This document shows, piece by piece, positions 11,931 through 50,961 of a stretch of DNA of 64,000 nt. Each line of letters opens with the position of its first letter. Position 1 is the stretch's first letter. The notes below the pieces were generated by a model, which searched no databases, was not told where the DNA came from, and saw only the letters and a program-made list of their open reading frames with translations. Source of the stretch: a virus. The position numbers and the translations under genes are program-made. The stretch is taken from the IMG/VR virus record IMGVR_UViG_3300011113_000123, positions 32,001 to 96,000 of that record; one strand, given 5' to 3'.

Positions 11931-11981
11931 GAATAACCCTCCATGTAGGAGGGATAATAAGACGGGTTCAAACCGCAAACT

Positions 11982-12006
11982 GGGGAGCAGAAATGCTCCC
12001 CTTTTT
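11982..12006 (+). terminator. Rho-independent terminator after gp23
   Basis: GGGGAGCA-GAAA-TGCTCCCC-TTTTT. Confidence 0.9.
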
Positions 12007-12024
12007 CATTGAATAAATAGTGAT

Positions 12025-12573
12025 ATGAGCGCACTCGAAAACCAACCATCGAACATCAACTTCCTCGGGCAAAACGGATTTCGATTTGCTATCAAGAGGC
12101 TTCCTGGTGTAAACTATTTCTGTCAGGCTGCTACGATTCCCGCAGTTTCTATGACGCCTGTGCAAAGCCCTACTCCATTCGCGTCTGTTCCGCGCCCTGG
12201 CGATCGTATCACGTACGAGCCACTGACGGTTATCTTTAAAGTAGACGAGGATCTAAAGAACTACTTCGAGATCCAGAAGTGGCTTGAGGGGCTAGGGCAT
12301 CCTGATAGCTTGGATCAAACTCGCCAACTATCTAAGAACATCAATAACAATCTGATCGCTGGTACTCGTCCAGTTGGCTATTACACAACGTTCATGTCTG
12401 ATGCTGTTCTTTCTATCCTTACCAGTGCCAAGAACTTGAACAAGAATATCATGTTCTTTGATCTGTTCCCACTCAGTCTTTCGGAACTGAGCTTTGAAAC
12501 GACCAACAGAACGATTGACTATCTTGAGGCAACAGCTACGTTCAGCTATCGTAAGTATGAGTTAGAAGAGTAA
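12025..12573 (+). CDS. gp3: Tail completion / tube terminator protein
   Basis: NFLGQNGFRF, PGDRITYEPL, VDEDLKNYFEIQKW, FPLSLS motifs; AATAAATA just upstream. Confidence 0.88.
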   Translation: MSALENQPSNINFLGQNGFRFAIKRLPGVNYFCQAATIPAVSMTPVQSPTPFASVPRPGDRITYEPLTVIFKVDEDLKNYFEIQKWLEGLGHPDSLDQTRQLSKNINNNLIAGTRPVGYYTTFMSDAVLSILTSAKNLNKNIMFFDLFPLSLSELSFETTNRTIDYLEATATFSYRKYELEE

Positions 12574-12574
12574 T

Positions 12575-12627
12575 CTAACCCTGTGTAACACAGATCATTA
12601 TAATGGCATAAGTTCCAGTTGTCAAGA
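12575..12627 (-). promoter_or_regulatory. Antisense perfect sigma70 promoter element, copy 1
   Basis: Minus strand TTGACA(12625-12620)-N17-TATAAT(12602-12597); 38/53 ungapped identity to 46806-46858. Confidence 0.8.
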
Positions 12628-12639
12628 ACTACTTTACTC

Positions 12640-12668
12640 TTGACAACTAATGATACAAGTGGTAAACT
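12640..12668 (+). promoter_or_regulatory. sigma70-type promoter for uvsY
   Basis: TTGACA-N17-TAAACT with extended TG. Confidence 0.8.
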
Positions 12669-12674
12669 TATCAT

Positions 12675-13112
12675 ATGAAGCTAGAAAATATTTACGCCAT
12701 GTGGGAAGCCGATAGCAAGTATGATGATCTCAACTTGGATAAGGACTCTCTCAACATCTCATCCCTCCACGCCAAGTACAATCGGCTACTGAGTGAAACT
12801 CGTAGCCAATTGCGTTCAGCTGTCATCAAGAAGAAAGCTCATTATAGCACGCTCCGCGATTACTATTTGGGTCATTTGAATAATCCACAGGACCTAGAAC
12901 GTATTGGTCGCGAGCCCTTCCTTAACAAGGTTCTAAAGAACGAAGTTCAGGGCTACATAGATTCTGATGGTGATCTTATTCGTATCGACGAGCGTATTGC
13001 TCTTCTCGAAGAAAAGGTCGAAGTCATTGTTGAAATCATGAAGTGTATCCACAAGCGCGGATACGATATCAAGTCCGCGATTGAGTGGAGAAAGTTTACT
13101 AATGGATTCTGA
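12675..13112 (+). CDS. uvsY: Recombination mediator
   Basis: LHAKYNRLL, C-terminal RGYDIKSAIEWRKF; position before uvsW. Confidence 0.9.
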   Translation: MKLENIYAMWEADSKYDDLNLDKDSLNISSLHAKYNRLLSETRSQLRSAVIKKKAHYSTLRDYYLGHLNNPQDLERIGREPFLNKVLKNEVQGYIDSDGDLIRIDERIALLEEKVEVIVEIMKCIHKRGYDIKSAIEWRKFTNGF

Positions 13113-21113: not shown

Positions 21114-21120
21114 GGAAGGT

Positions 21121-21170
21121 GCCATTGACAATCAGCCAGAAACCCCGTAGAATCAATATAGTGAATGGAG
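21121..21170 (+). repeat. 50-bp promoter+RBS repeat, copy 1 (early promoter)
   Basis: TTGACA-N17-TAGAAT..GGAG; 48/50 identical to 21375-21424. Confidence 0.9.
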
Positions 21171-21253: not shown

Positions 21254-21382
21254 ATGCACACTGAGGCTTTGCTTTACGCTTTCGCTCCCCTTATCGCCTA
21301 TGCTCTAGGCTCAGTTCTGACCCTCATCTGCTACAGCTACGCTATAAGAAAAAAGACCAAAAACGCCAAAAAGGGCCATTGA
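21254..21382 (+). CDS. 42-aa single-TM membrane peptide with basic tail
   Basis: GGAG RBS; MHTEALLYAFAPLIAYALGSVLTLICYSYAIRKKTKNAKKGH. Confidence 0.5.
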   Translation: MHTEALLYAFAPLIAYALGSVLTLICYSYAIRKKTKNAKKGH

Positions 21383-21424
21383 CAATCAACCAGGAACCCC
21401 GTAGAATCAATATAGTGAATGGAG
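21375..21424 (+). repeat. 50-bp promoter+RBS repeat, copy 2 (early promoter)
   Basis: TTGACA(21379)-N17-TAGAAT..GGAG. Confidence 0.9.
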
Positions 21425-27267: not shown

Positions 27268-28131
27268 ATGGCAGCTATTGAAATTTCAGTATCCATCGAA
27301 GAACTACGCAAGAAGAAGATCTTCGTCGCGACACCTATGTACGGTGGTATGTGCGGCGGGCAGTATACCAAGTCCACAGCCGACCTTGCGTCGATGGCCG
27401 CACAGTATGGCATGGACGTTCGCTTTTTCTATCTGTTCAACGAGTCGCTGATTCCGCGAGCACGAAACTACCTTGTGGACGAGTTCCTTCGTTCCGACTG
27501 CACCCATCTTATGTTCATTGACGCTGACATTGGCTTTGATCCCAATGACGTCATCGCTCTTGCTGTCATTGCAGAAGAGGGAACCGATAAGTATATCGTA
27601 TGCGCGCCGTATCCTAAGAAGTGTATCGCTTGGGAAAAGATCAAGCGCGCAGTCGATAAGGGTGTAGCCGACCGCGATCCTAACATCCTCGAGAACTACG
27701 TAGGCGACTACGTGTTCAATCCTAAGTCTGGCGCTTCTTCGATTCCGCTCGATGAGCCAGTCGAGGTGCTGGAAAGCGGCACGGGCTTTATGATGATCCA
27801 GCGATCTGCGTTGGAAAAGTTCCGCGAAGCGTATCCTCAGTACATGTATCTCCCCGATCATGTTCGCACAGAACACTTCGATGGTACGCGCGAAATCCTT
27901 ATGGCTTTCCAAGCTGAGATTGATCCTGCTTCTAAGCGATATCTGTCGGAAGACTATTGGTTCTGTCAGAAGTCCGCAGATGCTGGCATTAAGACTTGGC
28001 TGTGCCCGTGGATGAAGCTCCAGCACATGGGCTCCTATGTGTTCGCTGGTTCGTTGATTGATTTGGCTACGATTGGCGCGTCGGCTACAGCCGATGAAAG
28101 CTCCATGACCAAGCCGAAGAAAAAGAAGTGA
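27268..28131 (+). CDS. GT-A fold glycosyltransferase-like protein
   Basis: IFVATPMYGG, NESLIPRARN, LMFIDADI (DxD), GTGFMMI, LSEDYWFC. Confidence 0.7.
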   Translation: MAAIEISVSIEELRKKKIFVATPMYGGMCGGQYTKSTADLASMAAQYGMDVRFFYLFNESLIPRARNYLVDEFLRSDCTHLMFIDADIGFDPNDVIALAVIAEEGTDKYIVCAPYPKKCIAWEKIKRAVDKGVADRDPNILENYVGDYVFNPKSGASSIPLDEPVEVLESGTGFMMIQRSALEKFREAYPQYMYLPDHVRTEHFDGTREILMAFQAEIDPASKRYLSEDYWFCQKSADAGIKTWLCPWMKLQHMGSYVFAGSLIDLATIGASATADESSMTKPKKKK

Positions 28132-28137
28132 AAAGTC

Positions 28138-28166
28138 TTGACAACCCCACACAATGATGATACAAT
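28138..28166 (+). promoter_or_regulatory. sigma70-type promoter for gp45
   Basis: TTGACA-N17-TACAAT with TG extension. Confidence 0.85.
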
Positions 28167-28184
28167 CAACAGATAGGAGTTTAC

Positions 28185-28850
28185 ATGATGAAGCTATCTA
28201 AAGAAACCACAGAAATCCTCAAGAACTTCGCGGCTATCAATCCTTCTCTCATCTTCGTTCCTGGAACTGTACAGAAGACGATGAGTCCACAGAAGACTGT
28301 GATGGCTAAGGCTAACGTCGCTGAGTCATTCAGTAAGGAGTTTGCTATCTACGATCTTACCCAGTTCATCTCGACTGTTTCTTCGTTCGAAGATCCAGAT
28401 CTCAAGTTGGGTGATGATCGAGTGACGATCACTAATGGTAAGGGGTCGGCTGACATTCGCTATGCTAAGTCTGACCTCATCAAGTCGCCCACGAAGGAAG
28501 TGAATCTTTCTTCTGTCGATATCAGCTATACGATTGAAGCTTCTGCGTTGCAGAGCGCTCTCCGCATGGCTGGCGTGCTTTCTCTTCCTGAGATTGCGCT
28601 CATTGGTCGTGATGGTGTAGCGTATCTCGCTGCTATCGATTCTCGTAACGAAGGATCTAATACCTTCATGTACGAAGTTGGTACGGCTGAAGCCAACTAT
28701 CGTATGATCTTCAAGTCTGAGAATCTCAAGCTCTTGAATCGTGATTACGAAGTTCGTGTTTCTGCTAAGGGTATCTCGCATTTCAAGTCGAAGACTGGAG
28801 ATGTTGAATACTGGATTGTTGCTGAGCAGGGTAGCAAGTACGGCGAGTGA
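28185..28850 (+). CDS. gp45: Sliding clamp
   Basis: MKLSKETTEILKNFAAINPS, FAIYDL..F, YWIVAE. Confidence 0.95.
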   Translation: MMKLSKETTEILKNFAAINPSLIFVPGTVQKTMSPQKTVMAKANVAESFSKEFAIYDLTQFISTVSSFEDPDLKLGDDRVTITNGKGSADIRYAKSDLIKSPTKEVNLSSVDISYTIEASALQSALRMAGVLSLPEIALIGRDGVAYLAAIDSRNEGSNTFMYEVGTAEANYRMIFKSENLKLLNRDYEVRVSAKGISHFKSKTGDVEYWIVAEQGSKYGE

Positions 28851-28854
28851 TATT

Positions 28855-28879
28855 GGGGAGCTACGGCTCCCCTTCCTTT
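28855..28879 (+). terminator. Hairpin with cUACGg loop after gp45
   Basis: GGGGAGC-TACG-GCTCCCC-TTCCTTT. Confidence 0.7.
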
Positions 28880-28898
28880 GTTATGTCGGAGATGTGAT

Positions 28899-29438
28899 AT
28901 GTACATCAGTGATGAGAAACGACTTTTGATATCCGAGATTTTAAAGATTGGTGTCACTAAACCCTTCCATCGAGTTACGCTTCGTATAGTCGTAGATCGA
29001 GAATTTCGATTTGGCCTGAGTATGACCTTTAGGGAAGGAGGTGTTCCTACTTATTCTACGGGTCTGTACGCTATCTATGCGGAGGGTCCTGAATTTGATG
29101 AATGTCTATATGTTGGTGAATCTAGACATTGTGTGAGTCAAAGGATTAGAAAGTTTTTCAAAGAACTAGCAGACTGCAGTCATGAAGATGAAGATCATGC
29201 GGGAGCTAGGAGAGCGAGTGATAATGGCGGATATACTATCGACTCGCACGAGTACAAAGTGAAGTGGGTTTCATGGGAAGAAATTTTTCGCATAGCGAGA
29301 GAAAAGAACATCAACACAGACTTTAGATATCTAGATGAGTTCGTTGCTCATCATCTGAAATCAAAGTACAATTCATCAACGTTTCTACAGTATGGATACA
29401 ATGGTCGTACTCTTGAAGAGTTTCTGGAGATTGCATAA
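28899..29438 (+). CDS. GIY-YIG-like endonuclease (free-standing homing endonuclease candidate)
   Basis: GLYAIY...LYVGES...QRIRKF; interrupts the normally adjacent gp45-gp44. Confidence 0.6.
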   Translation: MYISDEKRLLISEILKIGVTKPFHRVTLRIVVDREFRFGLSMTFREGGVPTYSTGLYAIYAEGPEFDECLYVGESRHCVSQRIRKFFKELADCSHEDEDHAGARRASDNGGYTIDSHEYKVKWVSWEEIFRIAREKNINTDFRYLDEFVAHHLKSKYNSSTFLQYGYNGRTLEEFLEIA

Positions 29439-30376
29439 TGCGTGAAGAATTTCTGTGGGTTGAAAAGTATCGTCCTCGTAAGATTGCAGATTGTATCCTG
29501 CCTGAAGATCTTAAGGCTACGTTCCAGCAGTTTGTGAACAACGGTAACATCCCTAATCTTCTTTTGAGCGGTACGGCTGGCGTTGGCAAGACTACAGTTG
29601 CTCGTGCCATGCTGGAAGAAATCAACGCGGACTACATCGTTATCAACGGATCGATGAATGGTAACATTGACACACTCAGAACGGATATACGTAACTTCGC
29701 TGCGACGGTATCTTTTACTGGAGGTCGTAAGTACGTTATCCTTGACGAGGCAGATTACCTTAACGCAAACTCAACTCAACCAGCTCTACGAAACTTTATG
29801 GAGGAATTCTCATCTAATTGTGGGTTCATCCTCACCTGTAACTTTGTCAATAGGATCATCGACCCACTTCATTCGCGTTGTTCCGTTGTAGAGTTCAAGA
29901 TTGGCGTCAAGGAGAAGGCTGAGCTAGCCAAGCAGTTCCTCGTGCGCGCGTGCGGGATCCTGGATCAGGAGAGCGTTGGCTATGACAAGAAAGTCCTAGC
30001 CGAAGTGATTATGAAGCACTTCCCAGATTGGCGTCGTGTGCTGAATGAGTTGCAGCGATATTCAGTCCGCGGTACTATTGACTCGGGTATCCTTGCGTCG
30101 GTTGACAACGTAGAGATCAAGGAGCTTGTAAAGTATCTGAAGGCTAAAGAGTTTGAGGCTATGCGAAAGTGGGTCAGCCAAAACTCTAGCATGGACGTTA
30201 ATGTGCTGTTCCGTAAGTTGTACGATGCAGCCAGCACGATCATGAAGCCAGAGTCTATTCCGCCGCTCGTTCTTACCCTAGCCGACTATCAGTACAAGGC
30301 TGCGTTCGTGACTGACCAGGAGATCAATTTGGCTGCTTGCATGACCAACATTATGATCGACTGTGAGTTCAAATGA
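29438..30376 (+). CDS. gp44: Clamp loader large subunit
   Basis: LWVEKYRP, GTAGVGKTT, ILDEADYL, PLHSRC. Confidence 0.96.
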   Translation: MREEFLWVEKYRPRKIADCILPEDLKATFQQFVNNGNIPNLLLSGTAGVGKTTVARAMLEEINADYIVINGSMNGNIDTLRTDIRNFAATVSFTGGRKYVILDEADYLNANSTQPALRNFMEEFSSNCGFILTCNFVNRIIDPLHSRCSVVEFKIGVKEKAELAKQFLVRACGILDQESVGYDKKVLAEVIMKHFPDWRRVLNELQRYSVRGTIDSGILASVDNVEIKELVKYLKAKEFEAMRKWVSQNSSMDVNVLFRKLYDAASTIMKPESIPPLVLTLADYQYKAAFVTDQEINLAACMTNIMIDCEFK

Positions 30377-42222: not shown

Positions 42223-42430
42223 CAGGGATGATTGCCCTTGGTGTGTTCGAGCTAAAGATATGTTGTATTCTATAGGAAAAGAATACGAAGAGATTAAGAT
42301 TGGTCGTGATCTCACGCGCGAGGAGTTCAAGGAACAGTTTCCAGAAGTTAAAACAGTACCATATATAATCATTGATGGAACCGCTATCGGTGGTTATGAA
42401 AATCTGTTATCACATTATAAGCTCTCATAG
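42203..42430 (+). CDS. Glutaredoxin
   Basis: IYSRDDCPWC, TVPYI, IGGY; GTG start. Confidence 0.88.
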   Translation: MSVIIYSRDDCPWCVRAKDMLYSIGKEYEEIKIGRDLTREEFKEQFPEVKTVPYIIIDGTAIGGYENLLSHYKLS

Positions 42431-42497
42431 CTCAATTGGTTAGAGCCCGCCGCTCATAACGGTGTAGTTCCAGGTTCGAGTCCTGGTGGGAGCTCCA
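42421..42497 (+). tRNA. tRNA with CAU anticodon (Ile2-like or Met), encoded CCA
   Basis: Cloverleaf: GCTCTCA/TGGGAGC, D-arm GCTC/GAGC, CGCCG-CTCATAA-CGGTG, CCAGG-TTCGAGT-CCTGG, T73, CCA. Confidence 0.9.
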
Positions 42498-46696: not shown

Positions 46697-46801
46697 ATGG
46701 AACTCATTATCGGATTCGCAGCAGGACTCATCGTAGGATGGAACTTCCTACCTCAGCCTACATTCATTAAAGGATGGATTGATAAGATTAGCGGTAAGTG
46801 A
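46697..46801 (+). CDS. 34-aa membrane microprotein
   Basis: GGAG RBS; MELIIGFAAGLIVGWNFLPQPTFIKGWIDKISGK. Confidence 0.55.
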   Translation: MELIIGFAAGLIVGWNFLPQPTFIKGWIDKISGK

Positions 46802-46805
46802 TATA

Positions 46806-46858
46806 CTGACCCCTCGTAACACTACTCATTATAATGGTTATATCTGAAGTTGTCAAGA
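46806..46858 (-). promoter_or_regulatory. Antisense perfect sigma70 promoter element, copy 2
   Basis: Minus strand TTGACA(46856-46851)-N17-TATAAT(46833-46828); homologous to 12575-12627. Confidence 0.8.
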
Positions 46859-46864
46859 CGTTTT

Positions 46865-46872
46865 TATAAATA
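46865..46872 (+). promoter_or_regulatory. Late promoter TATAAATA
   Basis: Exact consensus upstream of the 1337-aa gene. Confidence 0.8.
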
Positions 46873-46874
46873 AA

Positions 46875-46938
46875 GGGAGCAGAAGGCTACGGCAATCCTG
46901 CTCCCAACTCATATGCGGTCAGGCCACGGCAATCCCGC
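46875..46938 (+). promoter_or_regulatory. Tandem structured 5-prime UTR motif (two hairpins sharing AGGCYACGGCAATCC)
   Basis: GGGAGCAG/CTGCTCCC and GCGG/CCGC stems enclose near-identical loops; abuts the GAGGA SD. Confidence 0.65.
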
Positions 46939-46947
46939 GAGGATAAA

Positions 46948-49900
46948 ATGAAGAGCGTTGTATTCACATTCGGGCGTATGAATCCGCCTACGACAGGGCA
47001 CCAGCTACTGGTGAACAAACTGATCGCTCTCGCTCAAACGAGCAAGTCGACTCCTCGCGTTTACTTGTCACATTCAGTCGGCAAGAAAGATCCCCTTCCA
47101 TACGATAAGAAGATCGCGTTCGCTCGTGCAGCGTTTGGTGCTATCGTACGCAAATCAAACTCAAAGAACGTTATTCAGATTCTCAAGGATCTTGAAGAAG
47201 AAGGTTTCACTCACGTCACGATGGTCGTTGGGTCTGATCGCGTTCCTGACTTCACTAGACTACTCAACACATACAACGGCAAGGAATACACGTTCGAAAA
47301 GATTGACGTCAAGTCAGCTGGCGAGCGTGATCCAGACGCAGACGATGTGACAGGTATGTCAGCCAGCAAGATGCGCGCTCTAGCTAAAGACGAAAAGGTC
47401 GCAGAGTTTCTTCGCGGCGCTCCCAACACCCTCAAAGCAGCACAAGCCAAAAGCATGTATACGGCTGTGCGTAAGGCTCTACTAGGAGAAAATGTTATGG
47501 AATATGGCCATGACGAAAAGTTCCTCGAATTCATTTTCGAACAGGATACAAAGGAAGACGACGATCTGACGGATATGCCGTCGGATGGTGAGATCTCAAA
47601 GCACTTCGATTCACTGCATCCAGACGATCTTGATCTCGACGACGCTGATGCTATGATGCTCGATGTTATTCTCGGTAACGAAGAAGAAGAGGAAGAAATC
47701 AAGGAAGCCAAAGTTCTTTCGATTCAGCAGCGTCAGAAGCTATCTCAGCGCATGAAGGCTATGTCTAAGCGTCTAGCTCGTCTTCGTCAGATCAAAGCAA
47801 AGCAGATGCCAGCTCAGCAGCGCCTTCGCATGCGCGCGCGAAAAGCTGCTATTATGCTTCTTCGTAAGCGCGCAACAGGCAAGAAAGATCTAGATTACGC
47901 TTCTCTATCGAAGTCACAGCGCGTAGCAGTAGACACTGCTCTTGTTCAGCGTTTTGGTAATAGTCTCAACAGAATCGTAGATCGTCTATCAACACGTCTG
48001 CTCCCTCGCGTACGCAAGCACGCGCAGGAGTACGTTAAGAAAGCTCGTGAAGAAGTCAAGGAACAAACACTCGATCCAAAGACAAAGAAGCACGTTTCGG
48101 ATCAGAAGCAAGATAATCCTCTGAATCTTGATGCGCTCAAGCTGAACATCTTGAATACTGATCCACAGAAAAATGATCGTGCGGCACCAGATCCAAAGCA
48201 AGCTCATCTGCATAAGAATAAGAAGGCTACACACTTCTTTAAGACATTCGATGAAGGTCGTAAGAGTTCTGCTGATAAGGACGCTCGCGATGCTGGTGAT
48301 ACCAACATCATCTATCAGATGCGTAAGACTATTAATTCGCGCGGCGAGCATGAAACAGTGTTTGCTGATGGGCACAAAGCAAACGTTTCAATCGCAGACG
48401 CCAAGAAACTTCTAGCTAAGTTTGAAGCTATTCGTATGCCTGCTGATAAGCAAGAGTTCACTATCCAGGCTGGTAAGTCTCTTTCTTCATTCAAAAACGT
48501 GCTTGCTCATGGCGTGAAGCAAGAAAAGAAGAAGATTTCGCTTGGCGGTAAGAGCTTCAAAGAGTTTTATCTTGGTGTGGGTCGCTCGCGCACTGTTTCT
48601 GCATATGATAACGATGAACCACCAGGAACTCGTCGCGTTGCTGAAGCTAAGAGCGTTGGTGGCGTAGAGCCAGATGCGAACGATGATCCTAATGTTTCGC
48701 GTAAGCCTAATCCAAAGCTAGACCTGTTGCTTCGCCTTGGTCTAGCAGATACAGACGAGCTGCAGAAGTATCGTCGTGCGCTGCGTTCTAGCAAAAAGCA
48801 AGCTCTTGGTTCGCCTGAGATGCGTAAGAAACTAGCTGATCTGTTGGATAAGCTGATTGATATCGTTACAGGCGATCCATCAACTTATTCGCGCGTCAGA
48901 TACAAGGTACAGGCTCAGGAAGCTATCTCGCTTGTTAATAAGGCTGAAAAGTCTGGTGTAGACGTAACAGTACTAGCTGAAGTGTTCATGCGCGAGATCG
49001 CAGAAACAAGTGATAACAACAGAGCTTTCAATCGCGTGAACTCATTCATTGCTGGCGGGAAAGCTGCTGAATTAGACAGCGATCTGTCAGAAAAGGCAGA
49101 TTTGCCTCACAAGTATCGTGCTGGTCTATCAGACAAAACCGCTGCTGCAAGAAAATCGCATTGGGATAAGATGAACAAGCTGTCTGATCGCGATCCTCGC
49201 GCGTACGAGCCAGCACCTGGAGATGCGACTGCAAAAACAAAACCATCGAAGCACACGCTAAAGTACAAGAGAATGTACGGAGAAGAAGCTATGGACGAAA
49301 GTTCTGAAACAGGATTAGCTGCAAAAGCTAAGAAGTCTGGTGTTTCGCTCGGAACGCTGAAGAAAGTGTATCGTCGTGGCGTCGCAGCATGGAACTCTGG
49401 TCATCGTCCAGGCACAACTCCGCAGCAGTGGGGAATGGCTCGCGTCAACTCTTACATCACAAAAGGTAAGGGAACCTATCATGGCGCAGATAAGGATCTG
49501 CGTGAAGACGAGCTGAATGAAAAGGGTCCAGGTCTGTGGGCTAACATTCATGCAAAGCGTCAAAGAATCAAAGCTGGCTCTGGTGAGCGTATGCGTAAAC
49601 CAGGATCCAAGGGAGCACCTACAGCAGATCAGATTAGAGCAGCTAAGAGCGAAGAAACACAAAACGAAGGTCAAGCTAACTGGGCTAAAGCTCGTAAAGA
49701 AAACGAACGCTCTAGCGTTGCGTATCTGAATCGCGCAAAGAAGTCATACGTTGATCGTAGTGTGACTCCATATAAAGCTGACGACGCTAAGATTGCTGCT
49801 GATTCCATGAAGGATTTCGTAGCCAGAGGCGGTAAGATTCAGCAGCTTCCGCCTGGTAAAAAGACGATCAAGTCGCTCGTTAAACCTAAGAAGTATATGA

Positions 49901-50961
49901 CGCCTAATCAGGCTTCAAAGATTACAGAACAGAACATGACGACACATGATGCAGTTCCTCTCTCGAAGAGAGTGAAGCGCGTTAAGAGCTTCCATGCTTT
50001 CCATCCTCCAGTGAAGGAAACGGTGCAGCGTGATTCTGATATTAGAATGGTTAAAGTTCGTATGCCCGATGGAACTACCAAGTTCCGTAAAGAACGTGCG
50101 CCAGCTAAAGTTCAGCAGGAAATGTATACAGGTTCGGAGCCAACTACAACTAATCCAGCTGATCCAGCAAGTCGTTTCGTAGGAACTAATGCTATTCGTC
50201 AGACGTATGCTAATGTAACTCCTGGCCAGGGATCAGTTGCAGGTGAAATTGCAGTAGCGAAGTATGCGCCCGAAAAGGTCAACTACACATCGTCAATGGC
50301 TAAGAAGACGCATACAGAAGTGGATCAGTCTAAGGATAACCTGAGCAAGAAACACTTCAATGACATTCGCAAGGCTCTTGGTGGTATTCGTGAATCGCAT
50401 GATCTTAACGAAGCGTTTGCTGCTGGATTTGAACTAGCTCCATTCGCGCGCGATTATGGTATGACAGTTCAGTCAGCGTTTGAGCATCATCCAGACGTAG
50501 AACGTATGATGGACGAGTCCAATACCAAAACGACGAAAGCGATTGTTTATAAGGACAATAAGCCATTCGCTATATATCCAGATATGAAATCTGCTCAGAA
50601 AGAATACTATGGTAAGGATGGTTATTCTATCGGCACTGTATCTTTGAGTAAGTCTAAGGCTTTAAAGAAATTAAATCCAGGTCTCAAGATTGTTGAAGAC
50701 TCAATGGATGAAGCTACATATCAAGGGCGCAAAGTTCCACTTAACAAACCTATGAAGGGTGATGTTAAGAAGTCAAAAGTTTATGTTGATCCAGACGGCG
50801 ACGGCAAAGCTAAAAAGATCAACTTTGGTGATAAGAATCTAAGTATCAAGAAAGATCAACCTGCTCGTAAGAGATCATACTGTGCTCGCTCTAGCGGTCA
50901 GGGTAATTTAACTAAGAAAGATAGTGCCAACTATTGGTCACGTAGAGCATGGAATTGCTAA
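46948..50961 (+). CDS. Cytidylyltransferase-like (HxGH) nucleotidyltransferase fused to a multi-module basic polyprotein
   Basis: FGRMNPPTTGH, VVGSDR, MSASKMR in the first 183 aa; later modules (WGMARVN, KKINFGD..SANYWSRRAW) separated by xxE linkers. Confidence 0.8.
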   Translation: MKSVVFTFGRMNPPTTGHQLLVNKLIALAQTSKSTPRVYLSHSVGKKDPLPYDKKIAFARAAFGAIVRKSNSKNVIQILKDLEEEGFTHVTMVVGSDRVPDFTRLLNTYNGKEYTFEKIDVKSAGERDPDADDVTGMSASKMRALAKDEKVAEFLRGAPNTLKAAQAKSMYTAVRKALLGENVMEYGHDEKFLEFIFEQDTKEDDDLTDMPSDGEISKHFDSLHPDDLDLDDADAMMLDVILGNEEEEEEIKEAKVLSIQQRQKLSQRMKAMSKRLARLRQIKAKQMPAQQRLRMRARKAAIMLLRKRATGKKDLDYASLSKSQRVAVDTALVQRFGNSLNRIVDRLSTRLLPRVRKHAQEYVKKAREEVKEQTLDPKTKKHVSDQKQDNPLNLDALKLNILNTDPQKNDRAAPDPKQAHLHKNKKATHFFKTFDEGRKSSADKDARDAGDTNIIYQMRKTINSRGEHETVFADGHKANVSIADAKKLLAKFEAIRMPADKQEFTIQAGKSLSSFKNVLAHGVKQEKKKISLGGKSFKEFYLGVGRSRTVSAYDNDEPPGTRRVAEAKSVGGVEPDANDDPNVSRKPNPKLDLLLRLGLADTDELQKYRRALRSSKKQALGSPEMRKKLADLLDKLIDIVTGDPSTYSRVRYKVQAQEAISLVNKAEKSGVDVTVLAEVFMREIAETSDNNRAFNRVNSFIAGGKAAELDSDLSEKADLPHKYRAGLSDKTAAARKSHWDKMNKLSDRDPRAYEPAPGDATAKTKPSKHTLKYKRMYGEEAMDESSETGLAAKAKKSGVSLGTLKKVYRRGVAAWNSGHRPGTTPQQWGMARVNSYITKGKGTYHGADKDLREDELNEKGPGLWANIHAKRQRIKAGSGERMRKPGSKGAPTADQIRAAKSEETQNEGQANWAKARKENERSSVAYLNRAKKSYVDRSVTPYKADDAKIAADSMKDFVARGGKIQQLPPGKKTIKSLVKPKKYMTPNQASKITEQNMTTHDAVPLSKRVKRVKSFHAFHPPVKETVQRDSDIRMVKVRMPDGTTKFRKERAPAKVQQEMYTGSEPTTTNPADPASRFVGTNAIRQTYANVTPGQGSVAGEIAVAKYAPEKVNYTSSMAKKTHTEVDQSKDNLSKKHFNDIRKALGGIRESHDLNEAFAAGFELAPFARDYGMTVQSAFEHHPDVERMMDESNTKTTKAIVYKDNKPFAIYPDMKSAQKEYYGKDGYSIGTVSLSKSKALKKLNPGLKIVEDSMDEATYQGRKVPLNKPMKGDVKKSKVYVDPDGDGKAKKINFGDKNLSIKKDQPARKRSYCARSSGQGNLTKKDSANYWSRRAWNC

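What the first reader, a model, noticed from the sequence alone, without database searches (positions are those of the whole stretch)
12575..12668. Conserved ORF-less antisense promoter element present twice: candidate R-loop origin or antisense RNA
Seen: 12575-12627 and 46806-46858 align without gaps (38/53): CTRACCC-N3-GTAACAC-N3-TCATTATAATGG-N10-AGTTGTCAAGA. On the minus strand each is a perfect TTGACA-N17-TATAAT promoter in a window with no credible minus-strand genes. The -10 sits in a palindrome (CATTATAATG). Conservation extends into the transcribed part (GUGUUAC-NNN-GGGUYAG), and each copy is back-to-back with a plus-strand promoter. Known: the T4 origin ori(uvsY) is a promoter whose transcript forms a priming R-loop, and UvsW dissolves such R-loops; copy 1 abuts uvsY-uvsW. 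Inference: these are transcription-primed origins, or early antisense RNAs that suppress premature late-gene expression (gp3 here; the ligase-like operon at copy 2).
Basis: partly seen in the sequence, partly recalled or inferred. Interest (0 to 1): 0.8.

Follow-up and report, generated by a model that had tools for sequence, protein, structure and literature searches.

The report
Conserved backward promoters in T4-like phage
An uncultured T4-like phage and its relatives keep three or four letter-perfect host-type promoters, with no gene behind them, pointing backwards into late structural genes; they most likely make early antisense RNA, and nothing testable here marks them as replication origins.

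Summary
Both copies are perfect TTGACA-N17-TATAAT promoters on the minus strand. A third inverted copy lies outside the window, between the PAAR gene and gp25. A fourth copy, in sense orientation, is the promoter and 5'UTR of a conserved 130-aa basic protein.

In metagenomic relatives the inverted cassette sits at the same three junctions: gp3|uvsY, next to the late promoter of the DUF6267/1337-aa genes, and gp5|gp25. In 40 distinct variants the -10 is always TATAAT and the spacer is 17 nt in 39. The spacer sequence varies freely. This pattern points to purifying selection on a minus-strand sigma70 promoter.

Downstream, only TGT at the likely start site and GGTCA about 10 nt further on are conserved. 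The palindromic -10 is not conserved.

All inverted copies lie in late-gene territory that has no plus-strand early promoters. The best reading is early "anti-late" antisense transcription.

The T4-type R-loop origin reading fails the tests I could run. There is no MotA-type promoter, no A+T-rich element downstream, no G-skew and no shift in cumulative skew. It is not excluded. No transcript data exist.

I rate this a new variant of a known kind.

The parts
12597..12625 (-). Copy 1 (junction J1) core promoter: -35 TTGACA at 12625-12620, 17-nt spacer, -10 TATAAT at 12602-12597.
   Evidence: The same element follows the gp3 stop codon in every relative with at least 70% gp3 identity, and in a lineage with about 50% identity.
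12574..12596 (-). Copy 1 transcribed leader: TGT at 12590-12588 (inferred start at G 12589) and GGTTA at 12580-12576, the equivalent of GGTCA. It ends against the gp3 stop codon (12571-12573).
   Evidence: TGT 1.8 bits per position, GG 1.4-1.7 bits. The start site is inferred from its distance to the -10 and the pyrimidine-purine rule; it is not measured.
12640..12677 (+). Divergent plus-strand uvsY promoter: TTGACA at 12640-12645, TAAACT at 12663-12668, and the ATG at 12675 only 6 nt after the -10, so the mRNA is probably leaderless.
   Evidence: The arrangement is conserved in relatives, with 13-15 bp between the two -35 hexamers.
12025..12573 (+). gp3-like tail completion/tube gene. It is the target that copy 1 would transcribe in antisense.
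   Evidence: phrog_45, tail tube, E 3.5e-38. Synteny gp23-gp3-uvsY-uvsW.
11937..11953 (.). Covarying hairpin just after the gp23 stop codon. The plus strand has an A-run before it, so it reads as an intrinsic terminator only for minus-strand RNA, about 650 nt from the copy 1 start site.
   Evidence: In three relatives a stem position is U-G on the plus strand (an A-C mismatch on the minus strand), which suggests it also, or mainly, folds in plus-strand RNA. Its role as the antisense terminator is unresolved.
46828..46856 (-). Copy 2 (junction J2) core promoter: -35 TTGACA at 46856-46851, 17-nt spacer, -10 TATAAT at 46833-46828.
   Evidence: Conserved in relatives L043-L048 and at the equivalent junction in G001.
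46802..46827 (-). Copy 2 leader: TGT at 46821-46819 and GGTCA at 46811-46807. It ends against the TGA stop (46799-46801) of a 34-aa membrane-peptide ORF (46697-46801).
   Evidence: Sixteen of 16 bases (TGAGGGGTCAGTATAT) are identical to the 5'UTR of the sense copy at genome 110,160.
46865..46872 (+). T4-type late promoter TATAAATA of the 1337-aa gene (46948-50961), 8 bp from the antisense -35. This is where the antisense promoter's UP element would lie.
   Evidence: The pairing of TATAAATA or ATAAATA with the antisense -35 is conserved at junctions J2 and J3.

Best explanation
The two elements belong to a small family of promoter-plus-leader cassettes: TC-TTGACAA, 17 nt, TATAAT, 5-6 nt, TGT, 7-8 nt, GGTCA. 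One copy per genome, in sense orientation, drives a conserved basic early protein of about 130 aa. Three copies here (four in one sub-lineage) are inverted. Each starts directly after the stop codon of a late gene: gp3, the peptide after DUF6267, or the PAAR/gp5 genes.

Shown: these are minus-strand sigma70-consensus promoters under strong purifying selection. They have no ORF behind them. They sit at syntenic sites in regions that otherwise lack early promoters.

Inferred: host sigma70 RNA polymerase fires from them immediately after infection. The untranslated transcripts run backwards into the late genes. While early transcription lasts, this keeps those late units silent, through polymerase collision with any sense transcription, pairing with stray sense RNA, or both. 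At J2 and J3 the antisense promoter's upstream contact zone also covers the adjacent late promoter. The effect ends when the late sigma factor gp55 takes over the polymerase.

The conserved TGT and GGTCA probably set the start site and act as a common operator or RNA signal. That signal would co-regulate all copies with the early protein gene.
For: Promoter and selection:
- Exact consensus on the minus strand at both sites.
- In 40 distinct variants from relatives the -10 is TATAAT in all, the spacer is 17 nt in 39 of 40 and the -35 is TTGAC[A/G]. Spacer positions carry mostly 0.0-0.7 bit against 2.0 bits at most hexamer positions.
- Most relatives lose the plus-strand TATAAT but keep the minus-strand one.

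Synteny and copy number:
- G001 (154,689 bp) has exactly three opposite-strand perfect promoters, at gp3|uvsY, at the late promoter before DUF6267, and at gp5|gp25. G002 has two such promoters plus one sense copy.
- A strict-pattern scan of IMG/VR gave at least 120 hits. Of the 80 loaded, most fall at J1, J2, J3 or J4, or in front of the P0001-family gene.

The cassette is a working promoter: the sense copy carries a Shine-Dalgarno sequence and the ATG of a conserved protein.

Layout: genome 0-44.6 kb and 140-157.6 kb hold no plus-strand early promoters. The inverted copies lie in that late territory or at its edge, or in a small late island at 75-85 kb.

No ORF: no conserved ORF follows the inverted copies.

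Against: - There are no transcript data for this or any related phage, so timing, length and even activity are inferred.
- Only 3 of at least 14 late promoter regions have such a partner, and no reason is known why gp3, gp5/PAAR and the DUF6267 region should need silencing.
- In relative L044 a minus-strand intrinsic terminator follows the cassette within about 35 nt. There a long antisense RNA cannot be the point.
- No consistent RNA fold was found in the leaders.
- The candidate terminator at the far end of gp3 shows plus-strand U-G pairs that would be mismatches on the minus strand.
- The conserved GGTCA is unexplained.
Confidence: 0.5

Rival explanations
1. Transcription-primed (R-loop) replication origins. 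The untranslated transcript stays hybridised to its template and primes leftward leading-strand synthesis, as at T4 oriF/oriG. The cassettes, possibly including the sense copy, would be the phage's multiple origins. GGTCA would mark hybrid formation or processing.
For: T4 origins are promoter-based. [quoted passage not shown] These cassettes create the only local divergence points in an almost one-stranded genome. There are three or four dispersed copies per genome. The promoters are ORF-less yet perfectly conserved. L044's immediate terminator shows that a short RNA suffices there. uvsW, whose T4 homologue unwinds origin R-loops, is present.
Against: The promoter is sigma70 early type, not MotA middle-mode. 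Pfam searches found no MotA or AsiA, although the control genomes also gave no hits. There is no A+T-rich element downstream: the median GC percentile of the first 50-100 nt is 33-38% across 40 variants, and copy 3's first 100 nt are GC-richer than the genome average. The transcript has no G-skew. Cumulative GC skew is essentially monotonic, with no turn at any copy. Copy 1 fires away from uvsY, unlike, by my recollection, T4 ori(uvsY). Leftward forks would run head-on into nearly all transcription.
Confidence: 0.12
2. Promoter-occupancy switch. What matters is RNA polymerase sitting on, or firing from, the cassette, not the RNA. Bound sigma70 holoenzyme and its alpha subunits cover the adjacent divergent plus-strand promoter (the late TATAAATA at J2 and J3, the uvsY promoter at J1). 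That promoter is thereby held off, or helped by divergent supercoiling, until sigma70 is displaced.
For: The late promoter lies 8-12 bp from the antisense -35, in the position of an UP element, in all J2 and J3 variants. At J1 the two -35 hexamers are 13-15 bp apart in all relatives. The 50 bp upstream of copies 1 and 3 are among the most A+T-rich in the genome (0.6th percentile). A perfect consensus gives very stable complexes. L044 terminates the RNA at once.
Against: At J4 the cassette abuts the start codon of the next gene and no TATAAATA-type late promoter is visible in the spacer. The partner promoters belong to two different classes. This reading does not explain the conserved transcribed GGTCA, nor why the cassette always abuts a stop codon.
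Confidence: 0.15
3. Neutral or selfish copies of a mobile promoter cassette (PeSL-like), spread by recombination and merely tolerated.
For: Leaders are homogenised within lineages. Sense and inverted copies of one lineage share the stretch between TGT and GGTCA: TACGAGG in the lineage of G000, TGTAACC in that of G001, TCCGAAG in a third. This suggests gene conversion between copies. T4-type phages are known to carry repeated early-promoter cassettes (PMC2839356, PMC4122927).
Against: The same three junctions are occupied in lineages whose flanking proteins have diverged to 31-50% identity. The hexamers are invariant while the spacer drifts. The orientation is always against the late genes. The sites are in core late modules rather than hyperplastic regions, and no terminator stem-loop precedes the promoter.
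Confidence: 0.05

Closest known systems
[quoted passage not shown]
   Same: They are antisense to late structural genes. The authors propose that they attenuate late gene expression early in infection, and they are conserved between diverged relatives.
   Different: Those were found as transcripts, without defined consensus promoters (15 of 17 lie within structural genes). Here the evidence is the reverse: three or four defined, letter-perfect sigma70 cassettes with a shared leader at fixed junctions, and no transcript data. The phage family also differs.
T4 replication origins oriF (uvsY) and oriG (34) (PMC3016281)
   Same: Both are promoter-based elements of about 100 bp, present in several copies per genome and placed at local transcriptional divergence. 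uvsY and uvsW are nearby at copy 1.
   Different: The T4 origins use MotA-dependent middle promoters followed by an A+T-rich unwinding element and, by my recollection, also express a gene. These cassettes are sigma70-consensus, ORF-less, lack the A+T-rich downstream element, and copy 1 fires away from uvsY.
PeSLs, composite terminator/early-promoter cassettes of T4-type phages (PMC2839356, PMC4122927)
   Same: Both are repeated early-promoter cassettes within one T4-type genome, with signs of recombination between copies. This genome's many plus-strand early promoters look PeSL-like.
   Different: PeSLs lie in hyperplastic regions, in the sense orientation, and are composite terminator/promoter sequences. 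The inverted cassettes lie in conserved late modules, face backwards and have no stem-loop upstream.
Convergent-promoter interference (coliphage 186 pR/pL) and T4 'anti-late' or gene 32 antisense transcription (from memory; Belin et al. 1987 appears in the reference list of PMC3014915)
   Same: A strong promoter facing a weaker or later one across a gene. Early RNA complementary to late messages.
   Different: In T4 the anti-late RNA is a by-product of early and late genes lying on opposite strands. Here nearly all genes share one strand and dedicated ORF-less promoters would supply the antisense RNA.

Membership tests
Bacterial sigma70-type (phage early) promoter | -35 TTGACA, 17 +/- 1 bp spacer, -10 TATAAT | tested here: met
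   12 of 12 matches at both window copies and at genome 152,917.
Bacterial sigma70-type (phage early) promoter | Selection on the hexamers and the spacing but not on the spacer sequence, on the proposed strand | tested here: met
   40 variants: TATAAT in 40 of 40, 17-nt spacer in 39 of 40, most hexamer positions 2.0 bits against mostly 0.0-0.7 bit in the spacer. Most relatives lose the plus-strand TATAAT.
Bacterial sigma70-type (phage early) promoter | Transcripts start about 7 nt downstream of the -10 in vivo or in vitro | not testable with these tools
   No transcript data. The sense copy with a Shine-Dalgarno sequence and the ATG of a conserved protein is indirect support.
T4 R-loop origin (oriF/oriG type; PMC3016281) | Middle-mode promoter with a MotA box at -30; MotA and AsiA encoded | tested here: not met
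   The -35 region is TTGACA. The genome gave no PF09114 (MotA) or PF09010 (AsiA) match, but the control genomes gave none either and the genome is about 90% complete. T4 oriE is reported to use an early-mode promoter, so this weakens the origin idea without excluding it.
T4 R-loop origin (oriF/oriG type; PMC3016281) | A+T-rich DNA unwinding element immediately downstream of the promoter | tested here: not met
   GC of the first 50 nt downstream of the inferred start site: copy 1 0.38 (9th percentile), copy 2 0.42 (25th), copy 3 0.42 (25th). Over 100 nt, copy 3 is 0.50 (78th). The median percentile over 40 variants is 33-38%.
T4 R-loop origin (oriF/oriG type; PMC3016281) | Location at a strand switch of transcription with a shift in nucleotide skew | tested here: inconclusive
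   Local divergence is present, since the promoters stand back to back. Cumulative GC skew rises almost monotonically with no turn at any copy. T4 oriA and oriC also lack such shifts.
T4 R-loop origin (oriF/oriG type; PMC3016281) | Persistent RNA-DNA hybrid; origin-dependent plasmid replication in infected cells | not testable with these tools
   Needs a cultured phage-host pair.
Early cis-antisense RNA against late genes (PAK_P3/PAK_P4 type) | Transcription unit lies opposite late or structural genes and has no ORF of its own | tested here: met
   gp3, PAAR/gp5 and the DUF6267 region lie downstream of the cassettes, and no conserved minus-strand ORF is present.
Early cis-antisense RNA against late genes (PAK_P3/PAK_P4 type) | Higher abundance early than late in infection | not testable with these tools
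   Inferred only from the promoter class.
PeSL (promoter-early stem-loop) cassette | Composite terminator (stem-loop) plus early promoter, lying in hyperplastic regions | tested here: not met
   No stem-loop lies upstream of the -35. What lies there is the late promoter or the uvsY promoter. The sites are in core late modules and the cassettes are inverted.
Any Rfam RNA family | Match at gathering threshold | tested here: not met
   The only Rfam hit in the window is a tRNA at 42421-42494.

The most novel reading that the evidence does not exclude
The cassettes form a dedicated regulon. Three or four ORF-less, maximal-strength host promoters share a start-site TGT and a GGTCA signal about 10 nt downstream with one early protein gene. 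Their real job would not be antisense silencing. They would instead be the phage's replication origins: R-loop or short-RNA primed, without the T4-type unwinding element.
Probability: 0.12. Interest if true: 0.8.

Novelty: new variant of a known kind. Interest (0 to 1): 0.55.

Why it matters
T4-like phages of the cyanophage/pelagiphage type carry nearly all genes on one strand. How they keep late genes silent early, and where they start replication, is largely unknown.

This work shows a fixed set of gene-less, letter-perfect host promoters aimed backwards at late genes. They are conserved across a broad uncultured, T4-like clade known only from metagenomes. That gives concrete, mutable sites for testing both questions.

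The finding also shows that conservation in metagenomes alone can establish that an intergenic promoter is functional. The free spacer serves as an internal neutral control.

If the cassettes proved to be origins, they would be the first origin signature shared among copies in a T4-type phage. T4's own origins share no motif.

Tried and rejected
- Bidirectional promoter built on the palindromic -10: rejected. Most relatives keep TATAAT only on the minus strand, and the plus-strand -35-like CTRACC is weak.
- Hidden small ORF or leaderless peptide behind the inverted copies: rejected. The position of the sense copy's ATG reads ATC or ATT, stops follow within 4-10 codons, and nothing is conserved.
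- Promoter for the distant minus-strand gene cluster (genome 139-146 kb) from copy 3: unlikely. It lies 6.5 kb away across eight plus-strand genes, and copies 1 and 2 have no such cluster.
- GGGGT as a Shine-Dalgarno or ribosome decoy: rejected as the conserved feature. Lineage B reads AACCGGTCAG, so only GGTCA is kept.
- Conserved 5' RNA hairpin: none found.
- P0001 as the factor that binds the shared leader: weakened. G001 has three inverted cassettes but no detectable P0001 homologue or sense copy, although that record is only 93% complete.
- AlphaFold model of P0001: too poor to use (pLDDT 59, pTM 0.23), so I ran no fold search. Pfam gave nothing and PHROGs only an unknown-function family.
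- RegA operator: the leaders (GAUUGUUAUC, GUGUUAC) loosely resemble the T4 RegA SELEX site AAUUGUUAUGUAA (PMC3014915), and regA is present. The inverted copies lack the AUG, so I did not pursue this.
- Sigma-dependent pause element or T7-type primase site (GGGTC): recalled resemblances only, not consistent across lineages.
- Megablast against deposited phages found nothing. The closest named phages share only about 50% UvsW identity. Methylophilales phage Melnitz has a gp3-uvsY spacer without the cassette, and cyanophage S-SCSM2R has no spacer at all.
- Literature: the T4 genome review could not be opened and two searches for 'anti-late' RNA found nothing. That point therefore rests on memory.
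- Transcription-driven DNA entry by backward promoters: considered. I know of no evidence for it in T4-type phages, and it cannot be tested here.

Full report
**What is there.** The window is bases 32,001-96,000 of a single 157,580-bp phage contig with 45.7% GC. The phage is T4-like. Its gene order gp23, gp3, uvsY, uvsW is typical of the cyanophage/pelagiphage branch. Almost all genes lie on the plus strand. On the minus strand each is an exact TTGACA-N17-TATAAT. The window holds 16 such sites with at most one mismatch, against 0.23 expected. Fourteen are plus-strand promoters in front of genes, and only these two face backwards.

**The family in this genome.** A whole-genome scan finds about 45 plus-strand TTGACA-N17-TAnnnT promoters and four on the minus strand. 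One, at genome 19,458, probably serves two real minus-strand genes. The other three are the two window copies and a third at genome 152,917, between a PAAR-motif gene and gp25. All three share CCATTATAAT and a similar transcribed stretch. The same stretch follows a plus-strand perfect promoter at genome 110,160. There GAGGGG serves as the Shine-Dalgarno sequence, and an ATG opens a 130-aa basic protein, P0001. The element is therefore a promoter-plus-leader cassette, with one sense copy and three inverted copies that have no ORF.

**Conservation.** Searching IMG/VR with gp3 gave 39 loci.
- J1: every locus with at least 70% gp3 identity carries the inverted promoter directly after the gp3 stop, back to back with a uvsY promoter.
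- J2: the copy 2 cassette recurs in relatives next to a TATAAATA late promoter.
- J3: the copy 3 cassette recurs before gp25 in near relatives. It is absent from T4-like phages with 47% gp25 identity or less.
- Near-complete relatives: G001 (154,689 bp) has 19 main-strand and exactly three opposite-strand consensus promoters. The three are all perfect and sit at the same three junctions, even though its DUF6267 and gp5 homologues are only 31% and 37% identical to ours. G002 has two inverted copies and one sense copy.
- More distant genomes: the complete genome G003 has none, and phage Melnitz has none in its gp3-uvsY spacer.

Across 40 distinct variants the -10 is TATAAT in every case, the spacer is 17 nt in 39, and the -35 is TTGAC[A/G]. 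Spacer positions carry mostly 0.0-0.7 bit, against 2.0 bits at most hexamer positions. The free spacer works as a built-in neutral control, so the hexamers and their spacing are under purifying selection. Most relatives read ATTATAT or ATTATAC on the plus strand, so the selected strand is the minus strand. The palindrome in this genome is incidental.

A strict-pattern scan of IMG/VR returned at least 120 hits. Of the 80 loaded, roughly 17 are at J1, 15 at J3 and 14 at J2. Three are at a fourth junction, J4, between homologues of genome genes 27,649-28,062 and 28,059-29,672. About 17 lie in sense orientation in front of P0001-family genes.

**The leader.** Downstream of the -10, only TGT (5-6 nt on) and GG(T)(C)A (a further 7-8 nt on) are conserved, at 1.4-1.8 bits. 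TGT sits where a start site is expected, so I infer a start at its G. The stretch between TGT and GGTCA is lineage-specific and is shared by sense and inverted copies of one lineage: TACGAGG here, TGTAACC in G001, TCCGAAG in a third lineage. This points to gene conversion between copies or to co-evolution with a common factor. GGTCA is not a Shine-Dalgarno sequence, because lineage B reads AACCGGTCAG. No conserved fold, no conserved ORF and no Rfam family explains it. Each inverted cassette ends within a few bases of the stop codon of the upstream plus-strand gene.

**Setting.** Plus-strand early promoters are absent from genome 0-44.6 kb and 140-157.6 kb, which hold the structural genes and T4-type late promoters. 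Copy 1 sits exactly at the right edge of the first block. Copy 3 sits inside the second. Copy 2 sits in a small late island at 75-85 kb. At J2 and J3 the late promoter lies 8-12 bp from the antisense -35, where an UP element would lie. At J1 the two -35 hexamers are 13-15 bp apart.

[quoted passage not shown] The results here were:
- The promoter is sigma70-consensus, and no MotA or AsiA domain was found. The caveat is that the control genomes gave no hits either.
- The first 50-100 nt downstream are not A+T-rich. The 50-nt windows fall at the 9th, 25th and 25th percentiles. Copy 3's 100-nt window falls at the 78th. The median over 40 variants is at the 33rd-38th percentile.
- The transcript is not G-rich.
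- Cumulative GC skew shows no turn at any copy.
- Copy 1 fires away from uvsY.

None of this excludes an origin of a different design. T4 oriE is said to use an early promoter. In relative L044 a minus-strand terminator follows the cassette within about 35 nt, so a long antisense RNA is not always made.

**Antisense reading.** The layout fits early transcription running backwards into late genes. Early antisense RNAs within structural genes, proposed to damp late expression, are described for PAK_P3 and PAK_P4 (PMC5563952). Between gp23 and gp3 lies a covarying hairpin (11937-11953) with an A-run before it on the plus strand. It would terminate only minus-strand RNA, about 650 nt from the copy 1 start. 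In three relatives one stem position is U-G on the plus strand, which would be an A-C mismatch on the minus strand. I leave its role open.

**Verdict.** Its purpose is inferred. My estimates are: anti-late antisense transcription about 0.5, a local occupancy switch on the neighbouring promoter about 0.15, R-loop origins about 0.12, and neutral mobile cassettes about 0.05. Earlier notes of this scan include a second first-stage note on this same stretch (e1-5648137). They also include a similar backward-facing perfect promoter in an unrelated myovirus (e1-186035), which I did not check.

Noticed in passing
window 12663-12677; many plus-strand promoters listed (e.g. window 22800, 25391, 33568, 57978): Many early genes, uvsY included, have their ATG only 5-7 nt after the -10 hexamer, so their mRNAs are probably leaderless. 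For uvsY this spacing is conserved in all relatives examined.
   Followed up: partly
window 11931-12024 (gp23-gp3 spacer): Two covarying hairpins flank a nearly invariant 24-nt stretch, AAGACGG(G/T)TTCAA(A/G)CCGCAAACT, which has a T-arm-like GGTTCAAACC core. A late promoter follows, with the gp3 ATG only 5 nt after it. This may be an undescribed 3'UTR or processing element of the capsid mRNA.
   Followed up: partly
window 46873-46947 (5'UTR of the 1337-aa gene): After the late promoter come hairpins whose loops repeat AGGCYACGGCAATCC. The second copy, GCGGT(C/T)AGGCYACGGCAATCCCGCGAGGA, is conserved in relatives, including distant G001, and contains GGTCAG or GGTTAG. It may be a translational operator.
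   Followed up: no
genome 110,214-110,606 (L041:3215-3604), protein P0001: A conserved, very basic 130-aa early protein driven by the strongest promoter type. Its N-terminus reads MAILPIYYTTTNMRKRK and its conserved C-terminus APAYNKGAxQYITD..LGRK. It has no Pfam family, and the AlphaFold model is mostly of low confidence. A diverged 122-124-aa version occurs in another lineage.
   Followed up: partly
window 46697-46801: A 34-aa ORF encodes a hydrophobic peptide (MELIIGFAAGLIVGWNF...) directly after the DUF6267 gene. It is conserved in relatives L043, L047 and L048, with a longer version in L046.
   Followed up: no
window 21115-21165 and 21369-21419; genome 121,962: Near-identical early promoter repeats (CCATTGACAATCARCCAGRAACCCCGTAGAAT...) lie in front of small genes. 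They resemble the PeSL cassettes of T4-type phages.
   Followed up: no
L044, about 458 nt downstream of its DUF6267 homologue: In this relative the inverted cassette is followed at once by a GC hairpin and a T-run on the minus strand. The cassette would then make an RNA of only about 35 nt.
   Followed up: partly
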